Below, one piece after another: positions 17,333-36,734 of a stretch of DNA of 64,000 nt (positions are counted from its first letter, which is position 1; every line of letters begins with the position of its first letter). This DNA comes from Candidatus Moraniibacteriota bacterium (GTDB lineage Bacteria > Patescibacteriota > Minisyncoccia > Moranbacterales > UBA2206), in contig DMWY01000001.1 of assembly GCA_003483065.1 (NCBI GenBank), positions 8,606-72,605 on the forward strand, read 5' to 3'. Below the pieces are notes generated by a model. The model did not search any database. It was not told the origin of the DNA and worked only from the letters and a program-made list of their open reading frames with translations. Both the position numbers and the translations under genes were made by a program.

Positions 17333-17676
17333 TTTTTATTATTTATTTCTTTTAAGCTTTCTTTTCTGGTCAAAATCGATATATTTTGTTCTAATCTTTC
17401 GATAGAATTGAGGAGCTTAAAGATGATAAGGAAAATTAGAATGAATCCAACTAAAATAACAGCGTTGATGTTACCTTCAATTCCTATAAGTGTGGCCAGG
17501 CTTATGCTGGCTTTGGGATAAATAACAATTGCAATCATTCCACCCCACACAATTAGCCTAATGAGAAGTTTCAAAAAAGTTTGTTGGCGTTGTTTTTTGA
17601 AATATCGATCCGCACCCTGATAAATCATCAAGGCGGAAATTATTATAACTGCAATTTGGTACAAATGGATGTTCAT
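17329..17676 (-). CDS. DUF2304-like small membrane protein (typical partner of GtrB-like GT2)
   Basis: The protein is 115 aa with two or three TM helices and a C-terminal amphipathic LEQNISILTRK segment. Confidence 0.5.
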   Translation of the reverse strand: MNIHLYQIAVIIISALMIYQGADRYFKKQRQQTFLKLLIRLIVWGGMIAIVIYPKASISLATLIGIEGNINAVILVGFILIFLIIFKLLNSIERLEQNISILTRKESLKEINNKK

Positions 17677-18161: not shown

Positions 18162-18839
18162 TCAAGAAATTATACTCCAAATCATTTTATATAATGTTTT
18201 GAGACCGGTGAGAAAATCTTGTTTTTGAATTTTGCCCATTGAATATTCGGTGTAGCGAACAGTGATTGGAACTTCCTTGTATTTTAGCTTATATTTTCTA
18301 ATTTCGCGAATTACTTCGCTGTCATATTCATAACGATCAGACTTAGTATTGATAACTTCGGCAGCGTGACGAGAGTAGGCGCGAAAGCCGGACTGGGAAT
18401 CGGTCACCCAAAGGCCATAGAGGTACCAGGTGAAAAAATTTCCAATTTTGTTGGCTAGAATTTTGTGTGCCGGCATACCTTTGGGGTTGAGAAGTCGAGT
18501 GCCGAGCACTACATCAAAATTTTCAAATTCAATCGGCGCGGTCAACCTAGCAATGTCGGCTGGATCATGCTGTCCATCACCGTCAAGTGTGACAATAATA
18601 TCCGCGCCCAAAATTTTGGCCGCTTCAATGCCGGTTTTAGTAGCGGCGCCTTTCCCGCGATTTAGGCGATGGCGAAAAACCAAACCACCCAAGATTTCTT
18701 GGGCTTTGGAAAAAGTGTCATCGACGCTTCCGTCATCAACTACGACGATGTTTTCATAACCGGACTTTTTGATTTCAGCTATGACATCGCAAATGACTTT
18801 TCCTTCATTGTAGGCCGGAATAACAATATATATTTTCAT
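18162..18839 (-). CDS. Glycosyltransferase family 2, soluble polyprenyl-phosphate sugar synthase-like (DPM1-like)
   Basis: IVIPAYNEGKVI, VVVDDGSVDDT and TLDGDGQHDP are present. The gene has markedly higher GC than its surroundings. Confidence 0.8.
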   Translation of the reverse strand: MKIYIVIPAYNEGKVICDVIAEIKKSGYENIVVVDDGSVDDTFSKAQEILGGLVFRHRLNRGKGAATKTGIEAAKILGADIIVTLDGDGQHDPADIARLTAPIEFENFDVVLGTRLLNPKGMPAHKILANKIGNFFTWYLYGLWVTDSQSGFRAYSRHAAEVINTKSDRYEYDSEVIREIRKYKLKYKEVPITVRYTEYSMGKIQKQDFLTGLKTLYKMIWSIIS

Positions 18840-18952
18840 TTTTCCAGTATAACATAAAAGCTGATTTTGGATAATTGCCGTTTTTTTGAAATTATAGTAT
18901 TATTTATTCATAGGGAGATAAGCAGCATCTTTAATTTTTTAAGTTTATTTTT

Positions 18953-19891
18953 ATGTCAGAAAACAAAAAAATATCAGTGGTAGTGCCGTTGTATAACGAA
19001 GAGGGGAATGTCAAAAATTTGCATGCTAAGATTCTGAGTGCTTGTCAGAATCTTGGTCGAGAATTTGAAATTATTTTTATTGATGATGGATCGAAAGATA
19101 AGACAGTGGAAAACTGCCAAGGACTTTCGCCATTGAAGCTGATTGAATTTAGAAGAAATTTTGGCCAAACCGCTGCTTTTGATGCGGGGATAAAAAATGC
19201 CGAAGGAGATATTATTATCACGATGGATGGTGATTTACAAAATGATCCGGCAGATATTGGGTTGCTTTTAGAAGAAATGGAAAAAGGTTTTGATATTGTT
19301 TCCGGTTGGAGATTTAACAGAAAAGATAATTTTTCTAAAAAGTTCTTTTCACGGGGAGCTAATCTGCTTCGAAAGATTTTGATTCACGACAAAATACATG
19401 ACAGTGGCTGTTCTTTGAAAGCTTATCGAAAAGAGTGTTTTGCGGACGTGGATCTTTTTGGTGAAATGCATCGTTTTATCCCGGCACTTTTAGAATTGCA
19501 GGGGTATAAGGTGGGAGAAGTGAAAGTCTCGCATCATCCACGAGTCAGTGGAGTGACGAAATATAATTGGAAGAGGGGAATGAAAGGTTTTGTGGATATG
19601 GTTTCTATTTGGTTTTGGGGAAAATATTCCAACAGGCCGTTGCATCTTTTTGGCGGTTCAGGAATAATTTTGTCCTTGGCTGGTTTTGGAATCTTGACTT
19701 GGATGGCGATTGGAAAGATATTTTTTGCTATGTCACTTTCACAAAAAATTTGGCCACTGATGGGTGTGTTTTTTATCATGATTGGCATCCAACTTTTCAT
19801 TTTCGGACTTTTAGCTGATATTCTTGTTAAGAATTATTACAAAAGCCAAAATAGAATGAACTACTCGATTAAAGAGATAAAAGAATCATGA
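18953..19891 (+). CDS. GtrB/ArnC-like GT2 polyprenyl-phosphate glycosyltransferase with two C-terminal TM helices
   Basis: VVPLYNEEGNV, IFIDDGSKDKT, TMDGDLQNDP and a C-terminal hydrophobic pair are present. Confidence 0.8.
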   Translation: MSENKKISVVVPLYNEEGNVKNLHAKILSACQNLGREFEIIFIDDGSKDKTVENCQGLSPLKLIEFRRNFGQTAAFDAGIKNAEGDIIITMDGDLQNDPADIGLLLEEMEKGFDIVSGWRFNRKDNFSKKFFSRGANLLRKILIHDKIHDSGCSLKAYRKECFADVDLFGEMHRFIPALLELQGYKVGEVKVSHHPRVSGVTKYNWKRGMKGFVDMVSIWFWGKYSNRPLHLFGGSGIILSLAGFGILTWMAIGKIFFAMSLSQKIWPLMGVFFIMIGIQLFIFGLLADILVKNYYKSQNRMNYSIKEIKES

Positions 19892-19979
19892 AGCATGAAG
19901 CATATAACATGAAACATAAAATTAATTAAAAAATAATTCGTAATTCGTACATTTGTATGGATTCGTAATTCGTAAGGGA

Positions 19980-21314
19980 ATGAAAATTGCAATTATTGGA
20001 ACGGGTTATGTGGGATCAGTGACGGGGGCTTGTTTTGCTGAAATGGGCAACACTGTCATTTGCGTGGATAATAATCCACAAAAAGTTGAACAATTCAGAA
20101 GTGGAAAAGTTCCACTGCACGAAAAAGGATTGGATGAGTTGGTGGCGCGAAACTTGAAAAATGAAACTTTGAATTTTACCACTAATTTGAAAGAGGCACT
20201 GGACGCTAGTGACATAGTTTTTATCGCGGTTGGTACTCCGCCCAATGAAGATGGCAGTGCTGACTTGAGTCACGTAATTGGTGTGGCAAAATCAATCGGA
20301 CAAATGATAGAACATGAACTGATTATTGTGGACAAATCAACTGTGCCAGTGGGAACGGCAGAATTAGTCAAAAAAACCATCAAAGAGGAACAAGAAATGC
20401 GGGGAGTGAATATTCCCTTTCATGTTGTGAGTAATCCTGAGTTTTTGGCGCAAGGAACGGCAGTAAAGGACTTTCTTGAGCCTAGTCGCATTGTGGTGGG
20501 GGCAGATGATGAGAAGACCCTAAAAGCAATGGAAGAGCTGTATGCGCCTTTTATGCGCCGGGAGGGTCGTTTTTATGCTATGGATCCAAAAACTGCTGAA
20601 ACAGTGAAGTATGCGGCTAACAGCTTTTTGGCAGCTAAGATATCAATCAACAATGAATTAGCTAATATTTGTGCCAGAGTGGGTGCGGATTTTGATTTAG
20701 TGAGGAAGGCAATGGGGGCCGATCCGAGAATTGGTGAGCCTTTTATGTATGCTGGTCCGGGGTTTGGTGGGAGTTGTTTTCCAAAGGATGTCAAAGCTCT
20801 CATTAAGATTGCCAAAGATTATGGCTATACAGCAGAAATGTTTTTGCAGACATTGGAAACTAATGAGAAACAAAAACATGTTCTGGCGGATATGGTGATA
20901 GAAAAATTTCCCGATAATTTAGAAGGCAAAATTTTCTCTGTTTGGGGTTTGGCTTTCAAGGCGGGGACAGATGATATGCGAGAATCTTCGGCGCTTACAA
21001 TCATCAACAAACTTATCGACAATGGCGCAAAAATTCAAGCCTATGATCCGGAAGCGATGAAGATGGCGAAAACTTCGGAGTATTTCGGCGACAATTCTGC
21101 AATTACTTATTTTGAAAATAAATATGAAGCGCTCAGTGGAACGGATGGACTTTTGATCATTACAGAATGGAAAGAATTTCGTACCCCGGATTTTTCTCAA
21201 ATGAAAAAAAATCTAAAACAGCCGTTGATTTTTGATGGCCGACTTATGTATGACGTCAAAAAGATGCAAGAGCTTGGTTTTGAATATCGTTCAATTGGAA
21301 GAAGAGTTGAATAA
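19980..21314 (+). CDS. ugd: UDP-glucose 6-dehydrogenase
   Basis: MKIAIIGTGYVGSVTGACFAEMGN is the Rossmann N-terminus. GGSCFPKDV contains the catalytic Cys. The ORF-track start at 19953 is a TTG extension. Confidence 0.9.
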   Translation: MKIAIIGTGYVGSVTGACFAEMGNTVICVDNNPQKVEQFRSGKVPLHEKGLDELVARNLKNETLNFTTNLKEALDASDIVFIAVGTPPNEDGSADLSHVIGVAKSIGQMIEHELIIVDKSTVPVGTAELVKKTIKEEQEMRGVNIPFHVVSNPEFLAQGTAVKDFLEPSRIVVGADDEKTLKAMEELYAPFMRREGRFYAMDPKTAETVKYAANSFLAAKISINNELANICARVGADFDLVRKAMGADPRIGEPFMYAGPGFGGSCFPKDVKALIKIAKDYGYTAEMFLQTLETNEKQKHVLADMVIEKFPDNLEGKIFSVWGLAFKAGTDDMRESSALTIINKLIDNGAKIQAYDPEAMKMAKTSEYFGDNSAITYFENKYEALSGTDGLLIITEWKEFRTPDFSQMKKNLKQPLIFDGRLMYDVKKMQELGFEYRSIGRRVE

Positions 21315-21316
21315 AA

Positions 21317-21736
21317 TTATTTTCTGAAAACTAATTTTTTTCGCATAAAGAAATTCCAAAAAAGAACAAAAATAACAGCGATAATTTTGGCTAGCATTAC
21401 GGGGAGGCCGAGTTTGTCAGACAGCGACCAAAGGATGAATTCTGTCCAAAGAAGTCCAATAGCACCAACAGAGGCAAAGATAATAAATTCTTTTTTGATT
21501 CTGCCACTACTTTCAAAAACAAAAAGAACATTAATGGTGAAATTAGTTAGTATCCCACAACAATAGCTCACTGCGGCTGCGACAAGGTGGTTGATATGCA
21601 AGAATTGGTACAGAGCGAAAAGAACTGAAAGATCAACAAGTGTGGCTGTTCCGCCCGCCACTAAATACCGGAGAAATTGATGAAAAGTCTTCTCCGGCTT
21701 TTTTTTGAGGAAATTTTTTATATCTTCAATTTGCAT
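21317..21736 (-). CDS. GtrA-family small membrane protein (polyprenyl-P-sugar flippase family)
   Basis: FLRYLVAGGTATLVDLSVLF is present, with 4 TM helices and ~140 aa. The ATG at 21734-21736 is preferred over the TTG at 21748. Confidence 0.65.
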   Translation of the reverse strand: MQIEDIKNFLKKKPEKTFHQFLRYLVAGGTATLVDLSVLFALYQFLHINHLVAAAVSYCCGILTNFTINVLFVFESSGRIKKEFIIFASVGAIGLLWTEFILWSLSDKLGLPVMLAKIIAVIFVLFWNFFMRKKLVFRK

Positions 21737-23639
21737 TTTGTTTTTCAATTAGTGGACTATTCTTTATCACTTTAACGAAATTTATTTCTCGTTGTCCGAT
21801 GATAACTTCAAATTCTGAACTTTTTGTGGAATATAGTTTTTCAAAATCAATTTTACCCACACCGCCATTGGACATCTTGAGGCTTCGACTCATTCGATCG
21901 GTAGAAATTACAAAATAGTCGAAATTATTTTCTTTGAAAGTTTTATTTTTAAAATCAATATAGCATTTGCCGACAAAAGCTTCACACACCGCTCCTTTGT
22001 CCGACCAAATTGTCATTTCGTGAGCACCTGGTAGATTATTGAGATAGCTTCCTACTTCGAAACTGCCTTCGCCCATTCCTTTCAAATTAACGATGTAATC
22101 TCTTGGTAATATTTCCGAAGCATAGGCGAGAAAATCAGGCTTAATTTGAAAAAGGCTAAACAAAAGAATTAGAATTGAAAAAACATAAGCGACGGGAAGT
22201 TTCCAATCTTCTTTTATTTTTATATATTTCAGAAGTTGAACCATTCCGATGGCGGCCATAACAAAAGTTAATGGATAAGTCATAATTTGATAGCGCACAG
22301 TTGTGGTGACATTGTTAAGGGCGGAACCGAGATAGAAAAATAAAATGAAAATAATTATATAGATGACCGTGATTAGATCGCGATCCATTTCTTTTTTGCG
22401 AAAAATGAAAAATATTGGCGCAAGCATTAATACTAAAATGAATGGCGAAATACTAAACATTAGACTGTATAGATCAGCAATCATAGAGCCGACGTATTGA
22501 TTGGCGATAATCCAAAAGGAACCCATTTTTTGAGTGGAAGTGATAGTTTTTACGCTGGCGTCAATTGTGTCAAGATCAATGCCGATTCCTTTGGGTGAAG
22601 AAATAAATTCTTGAATGTTATATATATCTATTTTTAAAAATACGTTCAGAAAAACAATGACGGTAAAGATGACAAAAATTGCAACAATTGAGCGGGAAAG
22701 AATTTTTTTGTAGCGAATTAGAAATTTGAAAATAAAAGCAAATATTCTGTTTTTCAAGAGAAATGTATCAATACCCAAAAGGAAAATTATTCCCACAAAA
22801 ATCGGCCAAGTTGAAGAAAAAACCGGATTGCCGATTGTAGCATTGAACAAAACGGAAATTTTTACCCAAGTAGCGGGGAAAAAAATAAAAGCAGTGGCAA
22901 TGGCGGTGGCAAACAAGGTCAAATAATTGACAAAAGATTGTTTTAGATATTTTTCAATTTCAATTTTTTGGTGGGCATACAGAATATATTCCAAAAAGAA
23001 AAGCAGAAAAAAATAGATAAAAAGCATATTGGCGACATATTTAGTGATGACCGAAAGCCCAAGAAAGACTCCTGACAAAATCAAATATTTTTTTTCGCCG
23101 GATTTGAAAAAATTGAACAAACTTAGCGTTGAAAGCGCAGTGAGGATCCAAAGTATGGCATCAGAATTGATGATGAGTGAAATTCCAAGCAGAATAGGGG
23201 AGAGGCCAATGAAAATCAAAGCAAAATTAGCGGTGTTTTCTCCTAATAATTTCTTGATAAGAAAATAGAAAATCGGTAAAACCAGAAGCGTGAAGATAAA
23301 AACTGGAAAACGAAGTTTGTGATAGATGTCGCGAATAGCATTGAGCTCAGAAACAGTTTTGGGTTCATAGCGAAGCTTGCCTAAATCTTTTATGTCTTGA
23401 GAAATGAATGGCAATCCAGCACCGGAAATTATCGCCAAGGGTATCCCAGGTTTGTCGCAGATATTGGTACTTTTCCAGTTTTGAGTTTTTATGCTTTTCC
23501 AAAATTGCGGTACGCGATCATATGACCAATATGGTTCATCCACACCAGAAAAATTTCGAAGACGTGGAAGTCCGAAATATAGACTGGAGATTATAACTAC
23601 GGCGAAAATTAGGATGGCGGTTATTTTTTTCTGATTCAT
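21726..23639 (-). CDS. GT-C fold glycosyltransferase, ArnT/PMT-like (COG1807-like), DE-type
   Basis: VDEPYWSY lies directly after TM1, then CDKPGIPLAI (compare hPPLgk of PMT/ArnT); there are more than 10 TM helices and a soluble C-terminal domain. Confidence 0.5.
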   Translation of the reverse strand: MNQKKITAILIFAVVIISSLYFGLPRLRNFSGVDEPYWSYDRVPQFWKSIKTQNWKSTNICDKPGIPLAIISGAGLPFISQDIKDLGKLRYEPKTVSELNAIRDIYHKLRFPVFIFTLLVLPIFYFLIKKLLGENTANFALIFIGLSPILLGISLIINSDAILWILTALSTLSLFNFFKSGEKKYLILSGVFLGLSVITKYVANMLFIYFFLLFFLEYILYAHQKIEIEKYLKQSFVNYLTLFATAIATAFIFFPATWVKISVLFNATIGNPVFSSTWPIFVGIIFLLGIDTFLLKNRIFAFIFKFLIRYKKILSRSIVAIFVIFTVIVFLNVFLKIDIYNIQEFISSPKGIGIDLDTIDASVKTITSTQKMGSFWIIANQYVGSMIADLYSLMFSISPFILVLMLAPIFFIFRKKEMDRDLITVIYIIIFILFFYLGSALNNVTTTVRYQIMTYPLTFVMAAIGMVQLLKYIKIKEDWKLPVAYVFSILILLFSLFQIKPDFLAYASEILPRDYIVNLKGMGEGSFEVGSYLNNLPGAHEMTIWSDKGAVCEAFVGKCYIDFKNKTFKENNFDYFVISTDRMSRSLKMSNGGVGKIDFEKLYSTKSSEFEVIIGQREINFVKVIKNSPLIEKQNAN

Positions 23640-23651
23640 TTTTTTGAATAT

Positions 23652-25526
23652 TTATTTATTTGCCGATTGGGCACTGGTTATTTTAACATAATTATTAGTT
23701 CGTCCGCCAATGATAATTTTAAAGTCGCTAGATTCCTTTCCAGAATACATTTTTGTGAGATTTACTAATTCTGTGCCAATTTTGTAGTCTTGTGTTCCCA
23801 CTACCTTCGCTTCGCTAAATACCTCGTCTCTCTCACTTCGCGAAGTTACAAAGTAGTCAAAAGTGAGATTATCTTTCGCTTGCTGAGAACACTTACCAAT
23901 AAATTTTTCGCAAACTTGTTTCTTATCTGAAAAAATAACTAAATCTTTCGCATCAGGCAAAGCATTGAGATATTCTGATGCTTCCCAAGATCCGTCGGCC
24001 ATATCTCTAGGGTTGACAATGTATTTTTGTGGTAGAATTTCTGAAGAATAGGAAAGAAAAAATGGTCTAATGGATCGAAGTGAAATAATTGAAGTTAAAA
24101 TAAGTAAGGTTATTAGGATATAAAAAGTAGTTTCAGGAAGATATTTCTGGATGCTTTTTGACTTTATGAATTCATGAAGTCCAATAGCGGCAAGAATTGA
24201 GGCGAGGGGATAGATAACAATTTGATAGCGGACAGTCGAACTTATATGTGCTATAGAATTAGCTAAATAGAAAACTAAAATAAATGAAAGTAGATTGAAG
24301 GCCATTAAGAGATTATTTTTTTCTTTGATATTCTTGGAGAAAATCAGAAAGAAAACAGCTGAAATGAGAAATAGCGTAGTTATTGGTGGAATACCATAAA
24401 TTAAAGGGTAAAAAGCTGATAATAGACTGCTTAAAAATTCTGCAAAGGATGATGTGTCAGCTTTAGGCATGAAATGAATTGTTTCAAAATCGTAGTACTT
24501 CATTTCCTGAATGACATTTATAAAAACAAAAAATATTAAAAATAATACAAAAGAACTGATGATTTTTATGAATATTGATTTGTGAGTGCGAAAAGGAGCG
24601 CATATTTTTTGGACAAAAAAGCTTTTGAGTATGAATATATCAGCTGAAATTATAGCTAACATCGCTAGAAACATTGGCCATATTCTTTCAAAAGCCATAC
24701 TGAGAATAGTCGTTTCAAGGAGGCTTTTTATCGGTTTTATCCAGGCATTGGGATAAAAAATCAAAATAGTCGCGATTGAAATTAGAACGAGAATAAAATA
24801 ATCCCGCATTGATTTTTTGAAATACTGAATATTTTCTTCCTTAGAACAATCATCTAGGATATATTTTAGAAAAATCAAAGCTAGAAAAAAAGGAAAAAGC
24901 AAATTTGCAACAAATTTATTCAAAATTGAAAAACCAAGAATAATTCCGGCAAGATATAGAAACTTTCTGTTATTCTCTTTTTGATAAACCAAAAAACTCA
25001 AAAGAGAAAAAGGCATCAAAATCCAAAGAATGGCATCAGTGTTTACGATTAGGGAAATGCCCAGGAGAATTGGGGAGAGTCCGATAAAAATGATTGATAG
25101 CAGGGCGATTTTTTCATTCCATAATCTTTTGATGAAAAAATAAAAAAATGGCAAGGATAACAATGTGAATATATATACCGGTAATCGCAAAACGAGATAG
25201 ATTTTCTTAATAGTAGCTAATTGTTCCGGTGTTTTTGCTTGGGAGCGTATTTTTTCATATTTCTGCGGATCAGGAATAAAAGGTAACCCGATACCGGAAA
25301 TAGCAGCCAATGTTACGCCTGGTTTGTCGCATAAGCTAGTGCCTTTCCAGTTACCCTTTTTTATACTTTTCCAAAATCTCGGCACTCGATCATATGACCA
25401 AAGCGCTTCGTCGATTGCGCTGAATTTTTCAATTCTAGGAATGCCAAAATAGAGGTTTACAGAAATCACTGCGATAAACACAAGAATAGCTGGTATTTCT
25501 TTTTTTATTTTTGAAAATTTAACCAT
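23652..25526 (-). CDS. GT-C fold glycosyltransferase, tandem paralog of 21726..23639
   Basis: IDEALWSYDRVPRFWKSIKKGNWKGTSLCDKPGVTLAAISGIGLPF is collinear with its neighbour. Confidence 0.5.
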   Translation of the reverse strand: MVKFSKIKKEIPAILVFIAVISVNLYFGIPRIEKFSAIDEALWSYDRVPRFWKSIKKGNWKGTSLCDKPGVTLAAISGIGLPFIPDPQKYEKIRSQAKTPEQLATIKKIYLVLRLPVYIFTLLSLPFFYFFIKRLWNEKIALLSIIFIGLSPILLGISLIVNTDAILWILMPFSLLSFLVYQKENNRKFLYLAGIILGFSILNKFVANLLFPFFLALIFLKYILDDCSKEENIQYFKKSMRDYFILVLISIATILIFYPNAWIKPIKSLLETTILSMAFERIWPMFLAMLAIISADIFILKSFFVQKICAPFRTHKSIFIKIISSFVLFLIFFVFINVIQEMKYYDFETIHFMPKADTSSFAEFLSSLLSAFYPLIYGIPPITTLFLISAVFFLIFSKNIKEKNNLLMAFNLLSFILVFYLANSIAHISSTVRYQIVIYPLASILAAIGLHEFIKSKSIQKYLPETTFYILITLLILTSIISLRSIRPFFLSYSSEILPQKYIVNPRDMADGSWEASEYLNALPDAKDLVIFSDKKQVCEKFIGKCSQQAKDNLTFDYFVTSRSERDEVFSEAKVVGTQDYKIGTELVNLTKMYSGKESSDFKIIIGGRTNNYVKITSAQSANK

Positions 25527-25561
25527 AGTAACAGTATAGTTTCAAAAAGCCAGTTTGTAAA

Positions 25562-27676: not shown

Positions 27677-27835
27677 TAGATTATAGAAATGTTATTGGAT
27701 TGATAAATTTTGTAACTATTAATATAATAGTAGGTATAGCTTACTCAGTCAATTTTCACCCTTTTTGCGCTTGCCGATATCGAAAGTTAATCCTATAATA
27801 AAAATGCAGTTTTAAATTTGAATTAAACTTAATTT

Positions 27836-29629
27836 ATGACAAACCTATTAACCAAAAAATATGCCGTTGCGATTGTTATGCTAGCGATAGTCATCGGCGC
27901 TTTTACTTTCCGTTTTTACAATTTTTCTGATTGGTTATATTTCAAGATGGACCAATCGCGCGACGCGCAACTCATTAGTCATGCTATAAACGAAGGACCG
28001 ATGATGCTATCACTTTTGGGACCGAGAGCGGGCGCAACCGAAGTGGATAATGGCTTTTTGCGACTTGGTCCGGCCTATTATTATTTTCAATACATTTCTG
28101 GTTTTGTTTTCAATTCTACCGCTCCACAAGTCTTTGCCTATCCGGATTTGTTTTTTTCGATTTTGGGGATAATTTTGCTCTATTTTTTCTCGAGAATTTA
28201 TTTTTCCAAAAATATTTCACTTCTCATTTCGGCGATGTACGCTTTTTCTTTTATTGTGATTCAGTATTCTCGTTTTGCTTGGAATCCTAACTCGTTGCAA
28301 TTTTTTGCCCTGCTAACTTTTTTGGGACTTTTGAAATTTTTGAGCGAACAAAAATTAAAAAGAAAAATAGGCTGGCTAATTGTTTGGGCACTCGGGCTCT
28401 CTATTGGATCACAACTACATTTTTTTGGTTTCTTTGTGCTCACAGCTATTTCTGGGTGTCTCATTTTTTTTCACAGTCAATTTTGGCGATTACAAAAAAT
28501 CAAAGATATATTTCAGAAAAATATTTTGCAAAAAATAGCCGTTTATTCTTTGATTTTCATCTCTGTCTTCGCTTTGATTTATTCGCCTGTGATCATAAGC
28601 GACATAATGAGAAAGGGTGAAAACGCCGGAAATTTCATTCAAGCTTTGAGTTCTAAGGCGAAAAACAAAACTTTCGCAGAAAAAATATCCAAGAATTTTT
28701 CTGAGAATACTAAATATTATTGTCTCATCACCACTTCTTTTTGCGGAGAAGGGGAACCGTTTGATAGCGCAAAAAGTGCCTTGGCGTCAATTTTTTCGCT
28801 CGCATTGATTTTTTCCGGTTTGATTTTGATTGGGAAAGCCTTGCAAAAAGAAAAGAGTATTGAGAGGAGAAATTTTTTGGCGTTGCTGTTTTTATGGGTA
28901 GGCATGTTTTTCATTTTTACTTTTCCGGTTTCTTTTCAGCTTCGTCCAAGATTTTTCATTCTAGTTTTTGCTGTGCCATTTTTGCTTAGCGGAATAATAT
29001 TTGATTTTTTTCAAGAAAAATGGACAAAAAAAGCAATGTATTTTATTTTGGTATTTGCAACTATGATAATTGGATTAAATATATATGGAACACTGGCATG
29101 GTTTTCGGAGATGAATCAATCTCAAACTAAGGATGTGGAAATAAGTCGTACGTTGATTTTGAAAAACCAAGATGGTGTGACTTTAGGTGAACTGCAAAAA
29201 GCATCGGATTTTATCTATGAAAAAAGAAAAATAGGCAAAGACGTTTATTATTATGTAAAACCTGAGCATATAAATCCGATAAAATATATTTTAGCGCAAA
29301 AGAAAGACGCTAATTTTGTTTATGCGACTTTAAGTTTAAATGAAAATCCTAATGCTCAGTATTTTGCGATTATTCCTTCTGATGCTGATCCAAAAAAAGT
29401 TTTGGAAAAAAAATATGAAGTGCCGGTTGAGATATTATCTTCTCAAAATTGTGGCCAAATTTCAGTTTATGAGATAACTTTTCCCGAAAGAACTATTTCT
29501 AAGAATTTCAGATTTAACAAAAAATATTCCAAAACCGATCGACTTTTTTGGAAAGATGTTTTTGGAATAAGGAAAAGTTCAATTGAGGACGAAGATGAAT
29601 TAACTGATGATATAAATATGAATGAGTAA
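27836..29629 (+). CDS. GT-C-like membrane glycosyltransferase, 'DQSRD' paralog 1
   Basis: RFYNFSDWLYFKMDQSRDAQL...LGPAYYYF...PDLFFSIL...QYSRFAWNPNS is present. Confidence 0.5.
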   Translation: MTNLLTKKYAVAIVMLAIVIGAFTFRFYNFSDWLYFKMDQSRDAQLISHAINEGPMMLSLLGPRAGATEVDNGFLRLGPAYYYFQYISGFVFNSTAPQVFAYPDLFFSILGIILLYFFSRIYFSKNISLLISAMYAFSFIVIQYSRFAWNPNSLQFFALLTFLGLLKFLSEQKLKRKIGWLIVWALGLSIGSQLHFFGFFVLTAISGCLIFFHSQFWRLQKIKDIFQKNILQKIAVYSLIFISVFALIYSPVIISDIMRKGENAGNFIQALSSKAKNKTFAEKISKNFSENTKYYCLITTSFCGEGEPFDSAKSALASIFSLALIFSGLILIGKALQKEKSIERRNFLALLFLWVGMFFIFTFPVSFQLRPRFFILVFAVPFLLSGIIFDFFQEKWTKKAMYFILVFATMIIGLNIYGTLAWFSEMNQSQTKDVEISRTLILKNQDGVTLGELQKASDFIYEKRKIGKDVYYYVKPEHINPIKYILAQKKDANFVYATLSLNENPNAQYFAIIPSDADPKKVLEKKYEVPVEILSSQNCGQISVYEITFPERTISKNFRFNKKYSKTDRLFWKDVFGIRKSSIEDEDELTDDINMNE

Positions 29630-31397
29630 TATTTTGGAAAAAATAAAAAAATATCAAATTGCAATAATATTATCGCTAATTATTATTGTCGGTATATTTT
29701 TGCGCACCTATCATTTTTCGGATTGGTTGTTTTTTCAATCTGACCAATCAAGGGATTTGAATTTGGTAAGTCATGCAGTTGAAAATGGTCCTGGTTGGCT
29801 ACCGCTTTTAGGGCCAAAAGCCGGAGGAACATTTTTGCGCTTGGGTCCGATTTTCTATTATTTTCTATATCTTTCCGGAAAAATTTTTGGACTGAGCGAA
29901 CCTTGGAAAGCTGCTTTTCCGGATTTGTTTTTTTCTGTTTTGACCATTCCACTTTTCTATTTTTTCCTCAAAGAATTTTTTTCCAAAAATTGGACACTTA
30001 TAATCACGGCTTCATACGCAGTTTGTTTTTTTGCGGTTCAATATTCTCGCTTTGCTTGGAATCCCAATTCTCTGCCTTTTTTCAATCTGCTTTTCTTTTA
30101 TGCTTTATTGAAATTTTTTGATGCTTCGGATAGACGAAGAATGATTTGCTGGACAATAGTTACGGGAATTTCTTATGCCATTGCTAGTCAACTTCATTTT
30201 GTTTGTTTTTTTAGTTTTCCGATTGCCACCTTGGCAATTATTTTATTTCGAAAAATTATTCTTAAATATTCAGTCGGTCAATTTTTCAAATATGTCCCGA
30301 TTGTTATTGCCATTTTTATTTTATTTTATATTCCAATGATACTTAGCGATATGCAAGCCGACGGGAATAATGCGATTAATTTTTTGGTTTCTTTTGAAAG
30401 TAAGAGTTCGGATTCTGGGATAGCAGAGCTTGCAAAGACAAATATTTTTAATTTTTCCAAGTACTTTGCAATTATTTGGTCGGGCGTGGTTGATGCGGAT
30501 AAAAAAACATACAAATTATTTTCATACTTTATGCTTGCCGGATTGATTGGTGGAGGCTTGCTTTTTAGAAAAGAAACAGACGTAAGAAAAAAAATGTTTA
30601 TATTTGCAATTTTTGCGTGGCTTATTTCTTATTTCATTGTTTATTTCCCTCTAGGATCAAAGGTTCAGCCGAGACATTTTTTGCCGATTTTGCCGTTGCC
30701 ATTTATCTTTTGGGGATTTTTGATTTTATTTATAAATAAAATCAGCTGGAAATATAAATCTTTGATCATTGGGTCAATGTTGTTTTTGCCTATCGCGCTT
30801 AACGCGTATAGCGTCAAAACTTGGTTTGGCGAGCTTGGCGATTCGCAAACTAAAATTTCTCATCCGAGAAAATCAGCGCTTTTGAAATCAGTAGAGGGTG
30901 AAGATTGGTGGCATTTGAAAAAAACGGCTGAATATATAAAAAATGATTGCTATGGAGAAGATAAAAAAATATTCATTATTCCGCTTAAGAAAAGCTATCG
31001 CGATCTTATTAGTTATTCACTGGAAAGTATTGGAGAAAAAAGGGAATACAGTATAAAACTCGGATCGATGGAATATTATCCGGACAGTTGCTATTATTTT
31101 ATGTATTTTATGAAAAATTATTCTCCTGATTATTTTGATGGGCAAATAAGAAAAATAAGCGAAAAAAGTTTTGGTGATATTGGCGTTGTGCATTTTAAAA
31201 TAAATTCACAAGCGATAGCAGGGGGGGATAAAATTGAAAATCCTTTCAGAAAAGAAGACGGAGGGCAAGAAAGAAAAGATAGTAATATTGAAAGTGGCTC
31301 AGATGACAATAGCTCAATCGATGGAAGTGAGGATAATTCATGGTTGATTCCAAAAAGAAGAGAAAGAATTTTCTGGAAAGATTTATTTAATCAATAA
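29622..31397 (+). CDS. GT-C-like membrane glycosyltransferase, 'DQSRD' paralog 2, with acidic/Ser-rich C-terminal tail
   Basis: RTYHFSDWLFFQSDQSRDLNL...QYSRFAWNPNS is present. The tail reads GGQERKDSNIESGSDDNSSIDGSEDNS. The ORF overlaps paralog 1 by 8 nt. Confidence 0.5.
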   Translation: MSNILEKIKKYQIAIILSLIIIVGIFLRTYHFSDWLFFQSDQSRDLNLVSHAVENGPGWLPLLGPKAGGTFLRLGPIFYYFLYLSGKIFGLSEPWKAAFPDLFFSVLTIPLFYFFLKEFFSKNWTLIITASYAVCFFAVQYSRFAWNPNSLPFFNLLFFYALLKFFDASDRRRMICWTIVTGISYAIASQLHFVCFFSFPIATLAIILFRKIILKYSVGQFFKYVPIVIAIFILFYIPMILSDMQADGNNAINFLVSFESKSSDSGIAELAKTNIFNFSKYFAIIWSGVVDADKKTYKLFSYFMLAGLIGGGLLFRKETDVRKKMFIFAIFAWLISYFIVYFPLGSKVQPRHFLPILPLPFIFWGFLILFINKISWKYKSLIIGSMLFLPIALNAYSVKTWFGELGDSQTKISHPRKSALLKSVEGEDWWHLKKTAEYIKNDCYGEDKKIFIIPLKKSYRDLISYSLESIGEKREYSIKLGSMEYYPDSCYYFMYFMKNYSPDYFDGQIRKISEKSFGDIGVVHFKINSQAIAGGDKIENPFRKEDGGQERKDSNIESGSDDNSSIDGSEDNSWLIPKRRERIFWKDLFNQ

Positions 31398-31412
31398 AAT
31401 AATAGTTAAATT

Positions 31413-33038
31413 ATGAATTTTTTGAAAAAAATTGGCAGAAAAGAAAAAATAATAGTCGTTATTAGTTTTCTTGTTTTTTTGGTTATTGGAATATTTTTGC
31501 GAACATACCATTTCTCTGATTGGCTTAGATTTAATATGGATCAGTCGCGTGATGCAGAATTGATAGAAAACTTGAGTGAAAACAATGATTTGCCAAAATT
31601 AGGCCCGGGAGCGGGCGGAACAGAATTTCAATTGGGCCCGGCATTTTATTATTTTCAATTAATTTCAGCAAAAATATTTGGCGTGGAGCCGGAAAAATTA
31701 GCTTATCCGGACTTGTTTTTTTCAATTTTGTCGATCGGCCTGTTCTTTCTTTTGGTAAAAATTTATTTTGAAATTCCCATCGCATTGACTTTGACTTGGC
31801 TGTATTCAATTTCATATTTTGTGGTTAAATTTTCTCGTTTTGCTTGGAATCCAAACTCTACGCCATTTTTTGTGATGTTTTTTATCTATGCGCTTTATAA
31901 TTTGGCAATTTCACAAAAAAGGAAAATTGTTTGGGCAATTTTGACAGGAGTGTCTTTGGGAATTTGCATTCAATTACACACCTCGCTTTTGATAATTCTG
32001 CCGATACTTTCTTTTTTTGTAGCTATTATTTTTATCAGGAAAAAAATAGTTTCGACAACTATAATAGTAATTGTTATCGCAACTACTATTTTTGCTAATG
32101 TTCCACAAATTGTCACGGAAATTAGAAGTGGCGGATTTAATTCCAAACAATTTATATTGGGGATTACTAATAAAAATGAGCGAAATAATAGCTGGGCGAA
32201 TAATCTTGCCTTGAATTTTTCTTGTCATATCAAAACCAATAATCACATCCTTACTTCCATGGGAAATGAAAATGAGTGCGGGTATGAAAATGATTGGAAA
32301 ACATTCAAGAAGTTGGATGGCAAAAGAATGACTATTGGAGAAAAAATATTTTTTGTTGCATCAATTTTGCTATCATTGATATTTTCATTGGGAGGATATT
32401 TTCTTCTATTTAAAAAAACTATAAAAGAAAGCGATAAGAATAAAAAACTTTTCTTGGGTTTTATAGTGGGTTATATATTTTTGTCTTTTGTTTTCTACAT
32501 AACTTGGGCTACTGAATTGGCAGTGCGTTTTTTCCTGCCATTGTCATTTGTTCCGTTTATAATCCTAGGTTTTTGGTTGAATTTTTTTGAGAAAAAATTC
32601 AAAAAAGGCCTATGGATTGTGGTAATAATCATTGCTAGCATTTCGTTTTTTAATTTGCAAAAAATATCACATACGTACAGGGATTTGCAATATGGCGGGA
32701 AGGAGATTAATGGCGATTTTGATTATCTGACTTTAGGAGAGGGAAAATATGTGGTTGATTTTGTCAAAAACAATACTGATAAAAAAACAAACGTTATCGA
32801 TGCGCAAGCTGGTTATCTTTTTAAATCAATTCGCTCACTTCAATTTTTGGCGGGGAAAGAAAATATCGAAATAATTCAACTGAAAAAAGAGATTGAATTA
32901 AATTCTGGAGACAGACTGTTTTATTTGAAAAATGCTGAGAATAAATGCGAACTCTCTCAAGAGATAGCAAAAAAATATGACATTGAAAAATGTTCAATTT
33001 TTCGCCAATTTTCAATTTTTGTATTAAAAGTTAAATAA
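31413..33038 (+). CDS. GT-C-like membrane glycosyltransferase, 'DQSRD' paralog 3
   Basis: RTYHFSDWLRFNMDQSRDAEL...KFSRFAWNPNS is present. Confidence 0.5.
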   Translation: MNFLKKIGRKEKIIVVISFLVFLVIGIFLRTYHFSDWLRFNMDQSRDAELIENLSENNDLPKLGPGAGGTEFQLGPAFYYFQLISAKIFGVEPEKLAYPDLFFSILSIGLFFLLVKIYFEIPIALTLTWLYSISYFVVKFSRFAWNPNSTPFFVMFFIYALYNLAISQKRKIVWAILTGVSLGICIQLHTSLLIILPILSFFVAIIFIRKKIVSTTIIVIVIATTIFANVPQIVTEIRSGGFNSKQFILGITNKNERNNSWANNLALNFSCHIKTNNHILTSMGNENECGYENDWKTFKKLDGKRMTIGEKIFFVASILLSLIFSLGGYFLLFKKTIKESDKNKKLFLGFIVGYIFLSFVFYITWATELAVRFFLPLSFVPFIILGFWLNFFEKKFKKGLWIVVIIIASISFFNLQKISHTYRDLQYGGKEINGDFDYLTLGEGKYVVDFVKNNTDKKTNVIDAQAGYLFKSIRSLQFLAGKENIEIIQLKKEIELNSGDRLFYLKNAENKCELSQEIAKKYDIEKCSIFRQFSIFVLKVK

Positions 33039-33042
33039 TTTG

Positions 33043-34647
33043 TCAATTTCGTTCCAAGTAAATAAAAAATCTTCCATACGAATCATATGTAATTGGTGGT
33101 AGCGGTTCATTTAGTACTTTATTTTTTTTCTTTGAGCTAGTTAAATAAAATATCTGATCTGAAGATGAATTTTTTGTAAGACCAGTATCGTCTTTATTAA
33201 TGGAGATTAAGTTTATATCAGATTTGGCCACGAAAAATTTGATTGAGTTTGATGATTTTCTGAGATATTGTTTCTTTCCTTCGATATAAGCCACACCTCC
33301 TTTATTTGAATTGTTAATAATAAATTGAGAAATTACCTCTATTTCTTTTAGCGTAACATTTTCTATGGTGGCGATATCTTGACGAAGACCACCATTTTCA
33401 ATTTTTTTAAAATCAGCGAAATAATTCAAGGTGAAAAAAATATTGGTTGCGATAAGTATGAATATTGATAAGAATGGGATATAAGCATAGTTGCCAAGCA
33501 ATCTATCTGTTAAAAATTTTATCCATAAGCCAAGTAAAATAAAAGGCAAAAAAATCAGAGGGAGAAAGAATCTCATTGAAATTTCATATGCCAGAGGCAC
33601 AAAAAGTAAATAAGCAATTCCTGAATACAGAAAGATTAGTATCAAGAAAGATTTTCTGTTCCAGTCCTGCTCTTGCAAAAAATATTTAATTCCAATCACT
33701 AAACCACCCACAGCAAAGACTAATCCAGACAAAAAAATTATCCAATCAGTTTTTTTGCTGGTTAGTTTGATGGTACATCCATCGGATATCGCATAGCCTG
33801 AAAGAGTGACAACACTGCTTTGTACCCAACAGCTTGAATCTTGTAGGACATTTCTCATCAATTTGTTTTTTGAATCTTTTCTGGCATTTACACCAGAAAA
33901 GAATTCGGCGATATTTTTGCCACCTGTTTGATATTCATTAATAAATTGAGGAATGTTTAGAAATAATGATATTGTTAAAATTATAAAAAAATATTTAAAT
34001 AGGTTTATTTTTTTAATAAATAAAAATCCAAAGACAATTATCGTAGTTATCGGAAGAAGCAATAGCGATGTTGTGTGTAATTGAACTCCGACGCCAATGG
34101 CTATACCGGTGATTATCGCCCAAAATGCTCTGTTGGTATTTTTTTGAGAAATAATATTGTGGATTCCATAAAGACTTAGAATTGTCCAAAATGGCGTAGA
34201 GTTGGGATTCCAAGCGAAACGGGCATATTGAATAGCATAAAAAGACATAGTCAATAAGGTAGCCATTGATAATGATATCTTGATATTAAAATATTTGCGA
34301 AGAAAAAAGAAAAGAAGTGGTATGCACAATATTGATGAAACTAAATCCGGATAAGCCATTTTATCAGGAAAGTTTCCGAATATCTTAGCGGAAATTATTT
34401 GAAAATAATAAGGCATTGGTCCAAGTTTGAAAAAAGTGCCACCCGCTTTAGATCCCAATAACGGAAGCGGGCTTGTTCCATCAACTACACTACCGATCAA
34501 AATGGCATCACGACCCTGATCCATATTAAAGCGAAGCCAATCATGAAATTTATAGGTGCGAAAAAAAATACCTACTATTAATATAAGGCCAAAAATCGCA
34601 TAAATAAATCGCTTAGAATTTAAAATTGTTTTTATTTGTTGGAACAT
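33043..34647 (-). CDS. GT-C-like membrane glycosyltransferase, 'DQGRD' paralog 4 (convergent)
   Basis: RTYKFHDWLRFNMDQGRDAIL...QYARFAWNPNS is present. Confidence 0.5.
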   Translation of the reverse strand: MFQQIKTILNSKRFIYAIFGLILIVGIFFRTYKFHDWLRFNMDQGRDAILIGSVVDGTSPLPLLGSKAGGTFFKLGPMPYYFQIISAKIFGNFPDKMAYPDLVSSILCIPLLFFFLRKYFNIKISLSMATLLTMSFYAIQYARFAWNPNSTPFWTILSLYGIHNIISQKNTNRAFWAIITGIAIGVGVQLHTTSLLLLPITTIIVFGFLFIKKINLFKYFFIILTISLFLNIPQFINEYQTGGKNIAEFFSGVNARKDSKNKLMRNVLQDSSCWVQSSVVTLSGYAISDGCTIKLTSKKTDWIIFLSGLVFAVGGLVIGIKYFLQEQDWNRKSFLILIFLYSGIAYLLFVPLAYEISMRFFLPLIFLPFILLGLWIKFLTDRLLGNYAYIPFLSIFILIATNIFFTLNYFADFKKIENGGLRQDIATIENVTLKEIEVISQFIINNSNKGGVAYIEGKKQYLRKSSNSIKFFVAKSDINLISINKDDTGLTKNSSSDQIFYLTSSKKKNKVLNEPLPPITYDSYGRFFIYLERN

Positions 34648-36705: not shown

Positions 36706-36734
36706 TTTATTTTTTACTAATTACGAATTGTATG

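What the first reader, a model, noticed from the sequence alone, without database searches (positions are those of the whole stretch)
18162..34647. Complete three-component (GtrB synthase / GtrA flippase / GT-C transferase) extracytoplasmic glycosylation module with an unusually large GT-C expansion
Within ~16 kb the sequence encodes a soluble DPM1-like GT2 and a TM-anchored GtrB/ArnC-like GT2 (a second GtrB-like GT2 is at 42832-43815). It also encodes a GtrA-family flippase (21317-21736) and seven polytopic GT-C-like membrane proteins: two DE-type ArnT/PMT-like, one YfhO-like, and four DQSRD-type. This matches the established logic of CsbB/YfhO and GtlA/GtlB-type systems, where a sugar is loaded on undecaprenyl-P in the cytoplasm, flipped, and transferred outside to a polymer or protein. 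Seven or more candidate outside-acting transferases for two candidate lipid-sugar synthases is far beyond the usual 1:1 pairing. It suggests combinatorial or substrate-diversified surface glycosylation, which is notable in a reduced genome.
Basis: partly seen in the sequence, partly recalled or inferred. Interest (0 to 1): 0.8.

Follow-up and report, generated by a model that had tools for sequence, protein, structure and literature searches.

The report
Tandem GT-C glycosyltransferase array in Moranbacteria
A tiny-genome groundwater bacterium (Candidatus Moranbacteria) carries seven membrane enzymes in a row that probably add sugars to its surface from outside the cell; the machinery is of a known kind, but this clade-wide, anciently diverged array has not been described in any paper I could find.

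Summary

- a UDP-glucose dehydrogenase beside the ArnC-like GT2;
- a DUF2304 (GacJ-like) partner for the "soluble" GT2;
- an adjacent Wzx flippase;
- two further possible GT-C genes outside its range.

The locus looks like two or three transmembrane glycosylation systems merged, not one module. It is not peculiar to this genome. Of 48 related loci, the median holds six GT-C genes per ~21 kb. Each window DQxRD paralog has its own single-copy orthogroup. The catalytic loop is conserved (54%) and the acceptor-side regions have diverged (15-17%). This favours fixed, specialised transferases over combinatorial glycosylation. Sugars and acceptors remain inferred. Many transferases per donor is already known in mycobacteria, rhizobia and the eukaryotic ER. 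Verdict: new variant of a known kind, moderate interest.

The parts
17329..17676 (-). DUF2304 small membrane protein (GacJ/Rv3632-like); proposed activating partner of GT2a
   Evidence: Pfam DUF2304, 57 bits, with 3 predicted TM helices. GacJ and Rv3632 are DUF2304 proteins that stimulate GacI and PpgS. It lies directly next to the GT2a ortholog in L048.
18162..18839 (-). GT2a: soluble 225-aa GT2; candidate polyprenyl-phosphate-sugar synthase of the GacI/PpgS type
   Evidence: Pfam GT2, 82 bits. Best NCBIfam hit is PpgS, full length, 148 bits, below the equivalog cutoff of 370. No TM segment.
18953..19891 (+). GT2b: GT2 with two C-terminal TM helices (ArnC/GtrB/CsbB architecture); candidate undecaprenyl-phosphate-sugar synthase
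   Evidence: Pfam GT2, 113 bits. Full-length matches to ArnC PRK10714 (173 bits) and PgfS (148 bits), both below equivalog cutoffs. TM helices at 238-256 and 269-287. Directly upstream of DE-type GT-C plus GtrA in L028, L030, L054 and L056.
19953..21314 (+). UDP-glucose 6-dehydrogenase-like nucleotide-sugar dehydrogenase (NCBI gene call 19980-21314)
   Evidence: Three UDPG_MGDP_dh Pfam domains. TuaD 487 bits; passes the NDP-sugar dehydrogenase subfamily cutoff. Adjacent to the GT2b ortholog in 7 of 11 loci.
21317..21736 (-). GtrA-family small membrane protein; candidate flippase for polyprenyl-phosphate-sugar
   Evidence: Pfam GtrA_DPMS_TM, 88 bits. Four TM helices with strong positive-inside bias. 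Overlaps the end of C1 by 11 nt. Immediately downstream of the C1 ortholog in 9 of 9 loci that have GtrA.
21726..23639 (-). C1: DE-type GT-C (PMT_2/PMT), 637 aa
   Evidence: Pfam PMT_2 44.5 and PMT 30.6 bits. DEPYW motif after TM1. Orthologs are 57-65% identical across Moranbacteria. hhalign to the DQ family gives 95.8% probability.
23652..25526 (-). C2: DE-type GT-C, 624 aa, paralog of C1
   Evidence: Pfam PMT_2, 43.1 bits. 41% identical to C1 over the full length.
25562..27676 (-). C3: YfhO-like GT-C, 704 aa, with a large extracytoplasmic beta-rich domain and a C-terminal TM anchor
27836..29629 (+). C4: DQxRD-type GT-C, 597 aa; the most widely conserved orthogroup
   Evidence: Pfam PMT, 35.1 bits. 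All invariant residues present. Exclusive clade covering 33 loci.
29622..31397 (+). C5: DQxRD-type GT-C, 591 aa
   Evidence: Pfam PMT_2 only 22.4 bits, below the cutoff. 38% identical to C4 with all invariant residues present. Own orthogroup, 20 loci.
31413..33038 (+). C6: DQxRD-type GT-C, 541 aa (the modelled paralog)
33043..34647 (-). C7: DQxRD-type GT-C, 534 aa; last gene of a long minus-strand operon
   Evidence: Pfam PMT_2, 36.5 bits. Own orthogroup, 31 loci. 13-nt gap to Wzx.
34661..36139 (-). Wzx/MOP-family flippase; either the repeat-unit flippase or a GacK-like flippase of the monophosphate donor
   Evidence: Pfam Polysacc_synt, 107 bits. Next to the DQ-type array in 33 of 48 loci. 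GacK is a Wzx-type flippase in the GacIJKL system.
39738..41633 (-). C8: DUF6541/DUF1616 polytopic membrane protein; a possible eighth GT-C, unproven
   Evidence: Pfam. hhalign to the YfhO-like profile gives 69.7% probability, E 4e-5. Conserved C8-GT4-GT2c triad in 7 loci.
42832..43815 (-). GT2c: GT2 with two C-terminal TM helices (AglJ-like); third candidate polyprenyl-phosphate-sugar synthase
   Evidence: Pfam GT2, 68 bits. AglJ full length, 114 bits, below cutoff. TM helices at 252-270 and 282-300.
45389..47032 (+). Wzy_C (O-antigen polymerase/ligase family) membrane protein; context for the acceptor polymer
   Evidence: Pfam Wzy_C, 60.5 bits.
48328..49545 (+). LCP (LytR-CpsA-Psr) glycopolymer-to-peptidoglycan transferase; context for the acceptor polymer
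   Evidence: Pfam 118 bits. NCBIfam LCP domain 97.8 bits against a cutoff of 62.3.

Best explanation
The region is the core of a conserved Moranbacteria envelope-glycan locus. It merges two, perhaps three, multi-component transmembrane glycosylation systems.

Step 1 (inferred from homology). On the cytoplasmic face, GT2 enzymes load single sugars onto undecaprenyl phosphate.
- GT2b (ArnC/CsbB architecture) probably uses a uronic acid made by the adjacent UDP-glucose dehydrogenase.
- GT2a works with the small DUF2304 protein, as GacI does with GacJ.
- GT2c (AglJ-like) makes a third donor.

Step 2 (inferred). GtrA, translationally coupled to C1, and/or the Wzx protein flip the lipid-linked sugars.

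Step 3 (fold and topology shown in silico; chemistry inferred). Seven GT-C enzymes of three families transfer the sugar outside the membrane. Their active site is built around an Asp in the first external loop. Each enzyme serves its own acceptor position.

The most likely acceptor is the wall glycopolymer made by the flanking GT4/GT2, Wzx, Wzy and LCP genes. Surface proteins are the alternative.

The paralogs are ancient and individually retained. The array is therefore a fixed set of specialised transferases, not a variable or combinatorial one.
For: - Families and folds.
- Topology: with the 11 helices of the C6 model and the N-terminus inside, short cytoplasmic loops hold 8 K/R in 27 residues against 0 in 14 outside. 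All 13 invariant polar residues (D43, R46, D47, D100, R142, W145-N148, Q187, H189, N243, R372) face outside.
- Operon structure: C3-C2-C1-GtrA, C4-C5-C6, and GT2c-GT4-C8-hyp-GT4-RtcB-Tmk-Wzx-C7, with gaps of -11 to 41 nt.
- Conserved linkage: GtrA follows the C1 ortholog in 9 of 9 loci. GT2b-C2-C1-GtrA are co-oriented in L054 and L056, and GT2b-C1-GtrA in L028 and L030. GT2b is next to UGDH in 7 of 11 loci. Wzx is next to the DQ array in 33 of 48 loci.
- Specialisation: each of C4-C7 sits in its own clade with one member per locus, covering 33, 20, 11 and 31 loci. Identity among the four is 54% in external loop 1, 17% in external loop 4 and 15% in the C-terminal domain.
- Published precedents for both architectures, with the remark that combinations might exist: PMC8035078 and bioRxiv 10.1101/180810.
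- Wzy_C and LCP genes lie in the same island.
Against: - No biochemical data exist for any of these proteins or for any cultured Moranbacteria.
- All GT2 matches are below NCBIfam equivalog cutoffs, so donor sugars are guesses.
- The DQ-type array has no consistently adjacent GT2, so its donor is unassigned.
- Wzx could be the ordinary repeat-unit flippase.
- No initiating phosphoglycosyltransferase was found among ORFs of at least 100 aa in the window, so the acceptor pathway is incomplete here.
- Topology of C1/C2 rests on homology only. A crude hydropathy and positive-inside test was inconclusive.
- The AF2 models are predictions.
Confidence: 0.7

Rival explanations
1. Extracytoplasmic assembly line. 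Instead of decorating a polymer made in the cytoplasm, the GT-C enzymes act in sequence outside the membrane. They would build most of an envelope glycan from polyprenyl-phosphate-monosaccharide donors. Mycobacterial Emb/Aft and Mpt enzymes build arabinan and mannan this way.
For: - There are many GT-C genes for few donors.
- Each paralog is a conserved single-copy orthogroup, as expected for linkage-specific steps.
- C3's best structural match is AftD, and AftA and AftB also score.
- The array is phylum-wide and core, with a median of 6 genes per locus.
Against: - The island also holds seven GT4 and several GT2 cytoplasmic transferases plus Wzx, Wzy_C and LCP. These already account for a conventional repeat-unit polymer.
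- Copy number varies from 1 to 7 DQ-type genes between genomes, which suits optional decoration better than an obligatory pathway.
Confidence: 0.2
2. Protein O-glycosylation. Some or all of the PMT_2-type enzymes glycosylate Ser/Thr of secreted or surface proteins such as S-layer proteins or pilins. Actinobacterial Pmt and eukaryotic PMTs do this.
For: - Pfam PMT and PMT_2 hits.
- NCBI names these proteins 'glycosyltransferase family 39'.
Against: - No MIR domain is present.
- The PMT DE motif is replaced by DQxRD in four of the seven proteins.
- The genomic context is polysaccharide synthesis with Wzx, Wzy and LCP.
- PDB sequence searches with the family profiles found no PMT.
Confidence: 0.15
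3. Membrane-lipid modification. The ArnT-like enzymes add charged sugars such as uronic acids to a membrane glycolipid or lipid anchor. ArnT and rhizobial RgtA-D/F do this on lipid A.
For: - ArnT is the best fold match for C6.
- GT2b's best match is ArnC.
- The UDP-glucose dehydrogenase sits beside GT2b.
- In the Rgt system one bactoprenyl-phosphate-GalA synthase serves several GT-C enzymes (plus established knowledge).
Against: - The window contains no LPS/lipid A genes and does contain an LCP gene. CPR bacteria are generally held to have a Gram-positive-like envelope.
- ArnA, ArnB and ArnD are absent from the window.
- No NCBIfam ArnT or Rgt model matches any of the GT-C proteins.
Confidence: 0.1
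4. Redundant or decaying duplicates. The array is a by-product of tandem duplication and most copies have no distinct function.
For: The genes are in tandem and belong to one family.
Against: - The paralogs are only 30-38% identical, while their orthologs in other genomes score far higher.
- All four keep every invariant residue.
- About 89% of 224 family members keep a DxxRD/DxxKD motif in the N-terminal region; 80% have DQxRD itself.
- The orthogroups are single-copy and widely retained.
Confidence: 0.03

Closest known systems
Three-component LTA/WTA glycosylation systems of Firmicutes (CsbB/GtlA + GtcA + YfhO/GtlB)
   Same: A membrane-anchored GT2 with two C-terminal TM helices (GT2b), a GtrA-family protein and GT-C transferases, one of them YfhO-like (C3). 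GtrA is tightly linked to a GT-C gene.
   Different: In Firmicutes the GT-A and GT-C come as 1:1 pairs: three pairs in B. subtilis, and three pairs plus one flippase in L. lactis. Here there are 7-8 GT-C genes for 3 GT2 genes. The GT-C next to GtrA is PMT_2-type, not YfhO. The acceptor is unknown, and no teichoic-acid synthesis genes were identified in the window.
GacI/GacJ/GacK/GacL of Streptococcus pyogenes, and PpgS/Rv3632/Rv3779 of M. tuberculosis
   Same: A soluble GT2 of about 225 aa whose best match is PpgS, a DUF2304 small membrane partner in the same operon, a Wzx-type flippase candidate and GT-C transferases.
   Different: An unrelated Avd-like gene lies between GT2a and DUF2304. The Wzx gene is 16 kb away in another operon. 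The cognate GT-C is not identified; the unclassified membrane protein at 14818-16194 is a candidate. The GT2a score is far below the PpgS equivalog cutoff.
ArnC/ArnT (GT83) and rhizobial RgtE / RgtA-D,F
   Different: Only 9% identity to ArnT. There is no hit by sequence profile against the PDB or to any NCBIfam ArnT model. The motif is DQxRD. No lipid A pathway is evident in the window, and ArnA, ArnB and ArnD are absent.
Mycobacterial/corynebacterial GT-C sets (EmbA-C, AftA-D, MptA-C, PimE, Pmt)
   Same: Many GT-C enzymes draw on one or two polyprenyl-phosphate-sugar donors. Each is linkage-specific and they are partly clustered. AftD is the best structural match of C3.
   Different: There is no sequence-level relationship. 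The phylum is different and the genome is about 1 Mb. Here four to seven members of a single narrow family sit in a tandem array.

Membership tests
GT-C fold glycosyltransferase superfamily | Predicted 3D structure superposes on solved GT-C enzymes | tested here: met
GT-C fold glycosyltransferase superfamily | Conserved acidic residue in the first extracytoplasmic loop after TM1, with the N-terminus cytoplasmic | tested here: met
   DQxRD type: D43 and D47 are invariant in 29 sequences. They lie in the loop after TM1, with K/R bias of 8 inside against 0 outside. DE type: D34 and E35 are invariant, but topology from hydropathy alone was inconclusive. C3: D44 is invariant.
GT-C fold glycosyltransferase superfamily | Uses a polyprenyl-phosphate-linked sugar donor | not testable with these tools
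   Only circumstantial: co-located GT2 synthase candidates and flippase candidates.
Pfam PMT_2 / PMT (CAZy GT39/GT83-like) | Score at or above the Pfam gathering threshold | tested here: met
   Met for C1, C2, C6 and C7 (PMT_2) and for C4 (PMT). Not met for C5 (22.4 against 26.1 bits).
ArnT proper (Ara4N-lipid A transferase) | Sequence-level membership: NCBIfam equivalog, or a profile hit to solved ArnT | tested here: not met
   No NCBIfam hit for any GT-C except a 16.8-bit Agl23 match for C4. PDB profile searches with A1 and A3 found nothing at E <= 1.
YfhO family (Pfam PF09586) | Gathering threshold, and full-length architecture with a large external domain and a C-terminal TM helix | tested here: inconclusive
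   The score of 43.2 exceeds the 28.5 cutoff, but only model positions 760-833 of 835 align. The AF2 model shows a polytopic GT-C core, a beta-rich domain at 494-671 and a terminal helix at 674-703.
GtrA family | Pfam GtrA_DPMS_TM, about 120-140 aa, 4 TM helices | tested here: met
   88.3 bits against a cutoff of 26.1. Four TM helices, K/R 16 inside against 1 outside. Flippase activity is not testable here.
GtrB/ArnC/CsbB-type polyprenyl-phosphate glycosyltransferase | GT2 catalytic domain followed by two C-terminal TM helices, with a full-length match to characterised members | tested here: met
   GT2b matches ArnC model positions 5-311 of 316 and PgfS 2-304 of 308 and has two TM helices. GT2c matches AglJ 4-286 of 293 and has two TM helices. 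All scores are below equivalog cutoffs, so neither is an ortholog of a named enzyme.
GacI/GacJ (PpgS/Rv3632) two-protein synthase | Soluble GT2 of about 225 aa plus an adjacent DUF2304 membrane protein | tested here: met
   GT2a matches PpgS model positions 2-215 of 226 at 148 bits. DUF2304 lies two genes downstream in the same operon and is directly adjacent in L048. Stimulation of activity is not testable here.
DUF6541 protein (C8) as a GT-C | Detectable homology to GT-C families | tested here: inconclusive
   hhalign gives 69.7% probability to the YfhO-like profile and 8-43% in the earlier run. None of 15 members hits a GT-C Pfam family.

The most novel reading that the evidence does not exclude
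Moranbacteria, and perhaps other Parcubacteria, build a major envelope polymer largely outside the membrane. A dedicated, lineage-specific family of GT-C enzymes (the DQxRD family) would work as a linkage-specific assembly line, possibly as hetero-oligomers. It would be fed by only two or three polyprenyl-phosphate-sugar donors. This would be an independent invention of the mycobacterial arabinogalactan/lipoarabinomannan strategy in a bacterium with a genome of about 1 Mb.
Probability: 0.2. Interest if true: 0.7.

Novelty: new variant of a known kind. Interest (0 to 1): 0.45.

Why it matters
CPR/Patescibacteria are thought to live attached to host cells, and little is established about their envelope chemistry. 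In this ~64-kb window, about 13 kb goes to seven outside-acting glycosyltransferases. That is roughly 1.2% of a genome the size of the one complete Moraniibacteriota chromosome seen here (1.05 Mb).

The same array is kept as separate orthogroups across dozens of species-level genomes. This argues that elaborate extracytoplasmic glycosylation is a core trait of the lineage, not an accessory one.

The DQxRD family is narrow. Only 677 clusters score E <= 1e-30 among 1.84 billion representatives. It has no solved or characterised member. Its invariant residues and conserved gene neighbours give concrete targets for heterologous reconstitution.

The finding does not overturn any principle. Every component belongs to a known class.

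Tried and rejected
- Sequence and profile searches of the PDB with the DQxRD (A1), DE (A3) and YfhO-like (A2) alignments found nothing meaningful. Only fold comparison linked them to solved GT-C enzymes.
- A crude Kyte-Doolittle TM prediction with positive-inside counting was inconclusive for the GT-C proteins, because it misses amphipathic helices. For C6 it was replaced by helices from the AF2 model.
- Five literature searches found no description of these arrays. The 'ArnT' hits were the surname Arntzen.
- The afdb50 fold library was unavailable.
- A search for phase-variation tracts found only G7 at 31221-31227 and T9 at 38630-38638. This is weak evidence against on/off switching of the kind reported for Gtr systems.
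- tRNA and Rfam scans of the window were empty. GC content is uniform. Nothing marks the locus as a mobile island.
- C8 (DUF6541) and the protein at 14818-16194 were considered as further GT-C enzymes. The evidence is only suggestive, so they are not counted.
- Recent tandem amplification was rejected on paralog divergence and orthogroup structure.

Full report
**Source and setting.** The window is part of contig LBSI01000001.1 (137 kb) of assembly GCA_000991855.1. The organism is Candidatus Moranbacteria bacterium GW2011_GWF2_36_839 / GWF1_36_78. Its lineage is Patescibacteria group; Parcubacteria group; Candidatus Moraniibacteriota. GC content is 29-39% throughout, with no discontinuity at the finding. 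No tRNA or Rfam family is present. Positions 1 to about 50 kb form one large surface-glycan island. It holds seven GT4 and several GT2 transferases, methyltransferases, two AsnB-type amidotransferases, a Wzx, a Wzy_C protein and an LCP transferase. Housekeeping genes follow: L9, CTP synthase and GltX.

**Check of the observation.**
- GT2a, 18162-18839(-): 225 aa, GT2, no TM segment.
- GT2b, 18953-19891(+): 312 aa, GT2, two C-terminal TM helices.
- GtrA, 21317-21736(-): 88 bits.
- C1 and C2: PMT_2, and for C1 also PMT, above the gathering thresholds.
- C3: YfhO above threshold, but through its last ~70 residues only.
- C4: PMT above threshold.
- C6 and C7: PMT_2 above threshold.
- C5: PMT_2 at 22.4 bits, below threshold.

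C5 is nevertheless 38% identical to C4 and keeps all invariant residues. The three classes proposed from motifs are real. C1/C2 are 41% identical with DE[PA]xW. C4-C7 are 30-38% identical with DQ[SG]RD. C3 is separate. Profile-profile comparison joins the classes: DQ against DE 95.8%, DQ against YfhO-like 78%, DE against YfhO-like 84%.

**Topology.** Taking the 11 membrane helices of the C6 model with the N-terminus inside gives a clear result. The short cytoplasmic loops carry 8 Lys/Arg in 27 residues. The short external loops carry none in 14. The 13 invariant polar residues of the family all fall on the external face. These are D43, R46, D47, D100, R142, W145-N146-P147-N148, Q187, H189, N243 and R372. 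A Cys pair conserved in at least 90% of the 29 aligned family members, and present in C6 and C7 but not in C4 or C5, lies in external loop 4. For C1/C2 a crude hydropathy test was inconclusive, so their topology rests on homology.

1. A UDP-glucose 6-dehydrogenase-type enzyme lies between GT2b and GtrA.
2. GT2a is best matched, over its full length, by PpgS. A DUF2304 protein lies two genes downstream in the same operon. DUF2304 proteins GacJ and Rv3632 bind or stimulate the soluble synthases GacI and PpgS (bioRxiv 10.1101/180810).
3. A Wzx-family protein abuts C7. In the GacIJKL system the flippase of the monophosphate donor is a Wzx-type protein.
4. GT2c is AglJ-like with two TM helices. It heads a long minus-strand operon: GT2c-GT4-C8-hyp-GT4-RtcB-Tmk-Wzx-C7.

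The window therefore holds three candidate lipid-sugar synthases and two kinds of candidate flippase. The review PMC8035078 describes two architectures. One is a TM-anchored GT-A with GtrA and a GT-C. The other is a soluble GT-A with a small TM protein, Wzx and a GT-C. The review notes that combinations might exist. This locus looks like such a combination.

**Comparative evidence.** A scan of one genome per species with family motifs returned 69 loci, nearly all Moranbacteria. I searched their ORFs with the window proteins and counted matches.
- Among 48 loci of at least 15 kb, the median is 6 GT-C genes per ~21 kb (range 1-9).
- The median number of DQ-type genes is 4 (maximum 7).
- Wzx lies beside the array in 33 of 48 loci.
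- GtrA lies immediately downstream of the C1 ortholog on the same strand in 9 of 9 loci that contain it.
- GT2b-C2-C1-GtrA form one co-oriented block in L054 and L056; L028 and L030 have GT2b-C1-GtrA.
- The GT2b ortholog neighbours the dehydrogenase in 7 of 11 loci.
- A C8-GT4-GT2c triad recurs in 7 loci.

The classical three-component unit here is therefore GT2b (with UGDH) + C1/C2 + GtrA. The DQ-type array travels with Wzx and has no fixed GT2 neighbour.

**Age and specialisation of the paralogs.** In a neighbour-joining tree of 227 DQ-type proteins, each of C4, C5, C6 and C7 sits in its own clade. The clades cover 33, 20, 11 and 31 loci, essentially one member per locus. The duplications are old and the copies are individually retained. 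Among the four window paralogs, identity is 54% in external loop 1 (the catalytic loop) and 36% in TM2-7. It is only 17% in external loop 4 and 15% in the C-terminal external domain. In solved GT-C enzymes the N-terminal module carries donor binding and catalysis and the variable part recognises the acceptor. That is established structural knowledge, not tested here. The pattern fits a shared reaction chemistry with different acceptors or linkages. About 89% of 224 family members keep a DxxRD/DxxKD motif in the N-terminal region (80% DQxRD itself), and 52 of 53 DE-type proteins keep DExxW. The DQxRD family is narrow. Of 1.84 billion cluster representatives, 5,418 score E <= 1e-3 and 677 score E <= 1e-30.

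**Most likely mechanism.**
- Shown in silico: the folds, the topology of one class, the operon structure and the conserved linkage.
- Inferred: GT2 enzymes make undecaprenyl-phosphate-sugars on the inner face. GT2b possibly uses a uronic acid, given the linked dehydrogenase. GT2a is assisted by DUF2304. GtrA and/or Wzx flip the donors. The seven GT-C enzymes each transfer the sugar to a distinct external acceptor site.
- Acceptor: the wall glycopolymer implied by the flanking GT4/GT2, Wzx, Wzy_C and LCP genes is the most economical choice.

Rivals are an assembly-line synthesis of a polymer outside the membrane (mycobacterial style), protein O-glycosylation (PMT style), and lipid modification (ArnT/Rgt style). 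None is excluded, and they are not mutually exclusive across seven enzymes.

**Comparison with known systems and novelty.** Every component belongs to a known class, and NCBI already labels the PMT_2-type proteins 'glycosyltransferase family 39'. The 1:1 GT-A/GT-C pairing is typical of Firmicutes, but it is not universal. One donor serves many GT-C enzymes in Corynebacteriales, in the rhizobial Rgt system and in the eukaryotic ER.

Three things are new here. The first is a lineage-restricted GT-C family with a DQxRD catalytic loop. The second is its organisation as a conserved tandem array of anciently diverged orthogroups in genomes of about 1 Mb; a complete Moraniibacteriota chromosome of 1,048,819 bp appears. 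The third is the apparent fusion of both published system architectures in one locus. Five literature searches found no description of it. I rate it a new variant of a known kind and of moderate interest. Sugars, acceptors and biological role remain unknown.

Noticed in passing
window 17743-18111 (-): A 23S_rRNA_IVP family gene (four-helix bundle; from memory, this family includes the Avd proteins of diversity-generating retroelements) lies between GT2a and its DUF2304 partner. In the related locus L048 the two partners are directly adjacent. No reverse transcriptase was seen in the window.
   Followed up: partly
window 14818-16194 (-): A 458-aa polytopic membrane protein with no Pfam or NCBIfam hit, even at E <= 10. 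hhalign gives 82% probability (E 1e-5) to the core of the DQ-type GT-C profile. It sits in the same minus-strand operon as GT2a-DUF2304-GT4, so it could be the GacL-like GT-C partner of GT2a.
   Followed up: partly
window 39738-41633 (-): A DUF6541/DUF1616 membrane protein with invariant D141, H144 and H145. It forms a conserved triad with a GT4 and the AglJ-like GT2c. It shows weak profile similarity to the YfhO-like GT-C (69.7%). It may be an eighth GT-C.
   Followed up: partly
window 36136-38243 (-): Thymidylate-kinase-like and RtcB RNA-ligase genes are embedded, with gaps of -4 to 29 nt, in the long glycan operon between Wzx and a GT4. The spacing between Wzx and C8 is similar in related loci.
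   Followed up: no
window 31221-31227 and 38630-38638: A G7 run inside the 3' part of C5 and a T9 run inside a GT4 gene. These are the only long homopolymers found between 15 and 46 kb. The G7 run is unusual for a genome of about 33% GC and could be a slippage site.
   Followed up: no
window 1472-3052 (+), 12945-14837 (-): Two AsnB-type amidotransferases lie in the glycan island, one strong and one weak match. Together with the UDP-glucose dehydrogenase they hint at uronic acid or amidated uronic acid residues in the glycan.
   Followed up: no
window 6607-7983 (+), 7970-9250 (+): Two overlapping soluble ORFs of 458 and 426 aa inside the glycan island have no significant family hit in Pfam.
   Followed up: partly
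window 1-50000: No initiating phosphoglycosyltransferase (Bac_transf or MraY/WecA-like) was found among ORFs of at least 100 aa, although Wzx, Wzy_C, LCP and many GT4/GT2 genes are present. The priming enzyme must be encoded elsewhere.
   Followed up: partly
L022, L035, L045 (related loci): Some related genomes carry six or seven DQ-type GT-C genes in an uninterrupted same-strand run. Several loci have a different TM-anchored GT2 paralog (about 100 bits to GT2b) wedged between the array and Wzx. This paralog could be the missing donor synthase of the DQ-type enzymes.
   Followed up: no
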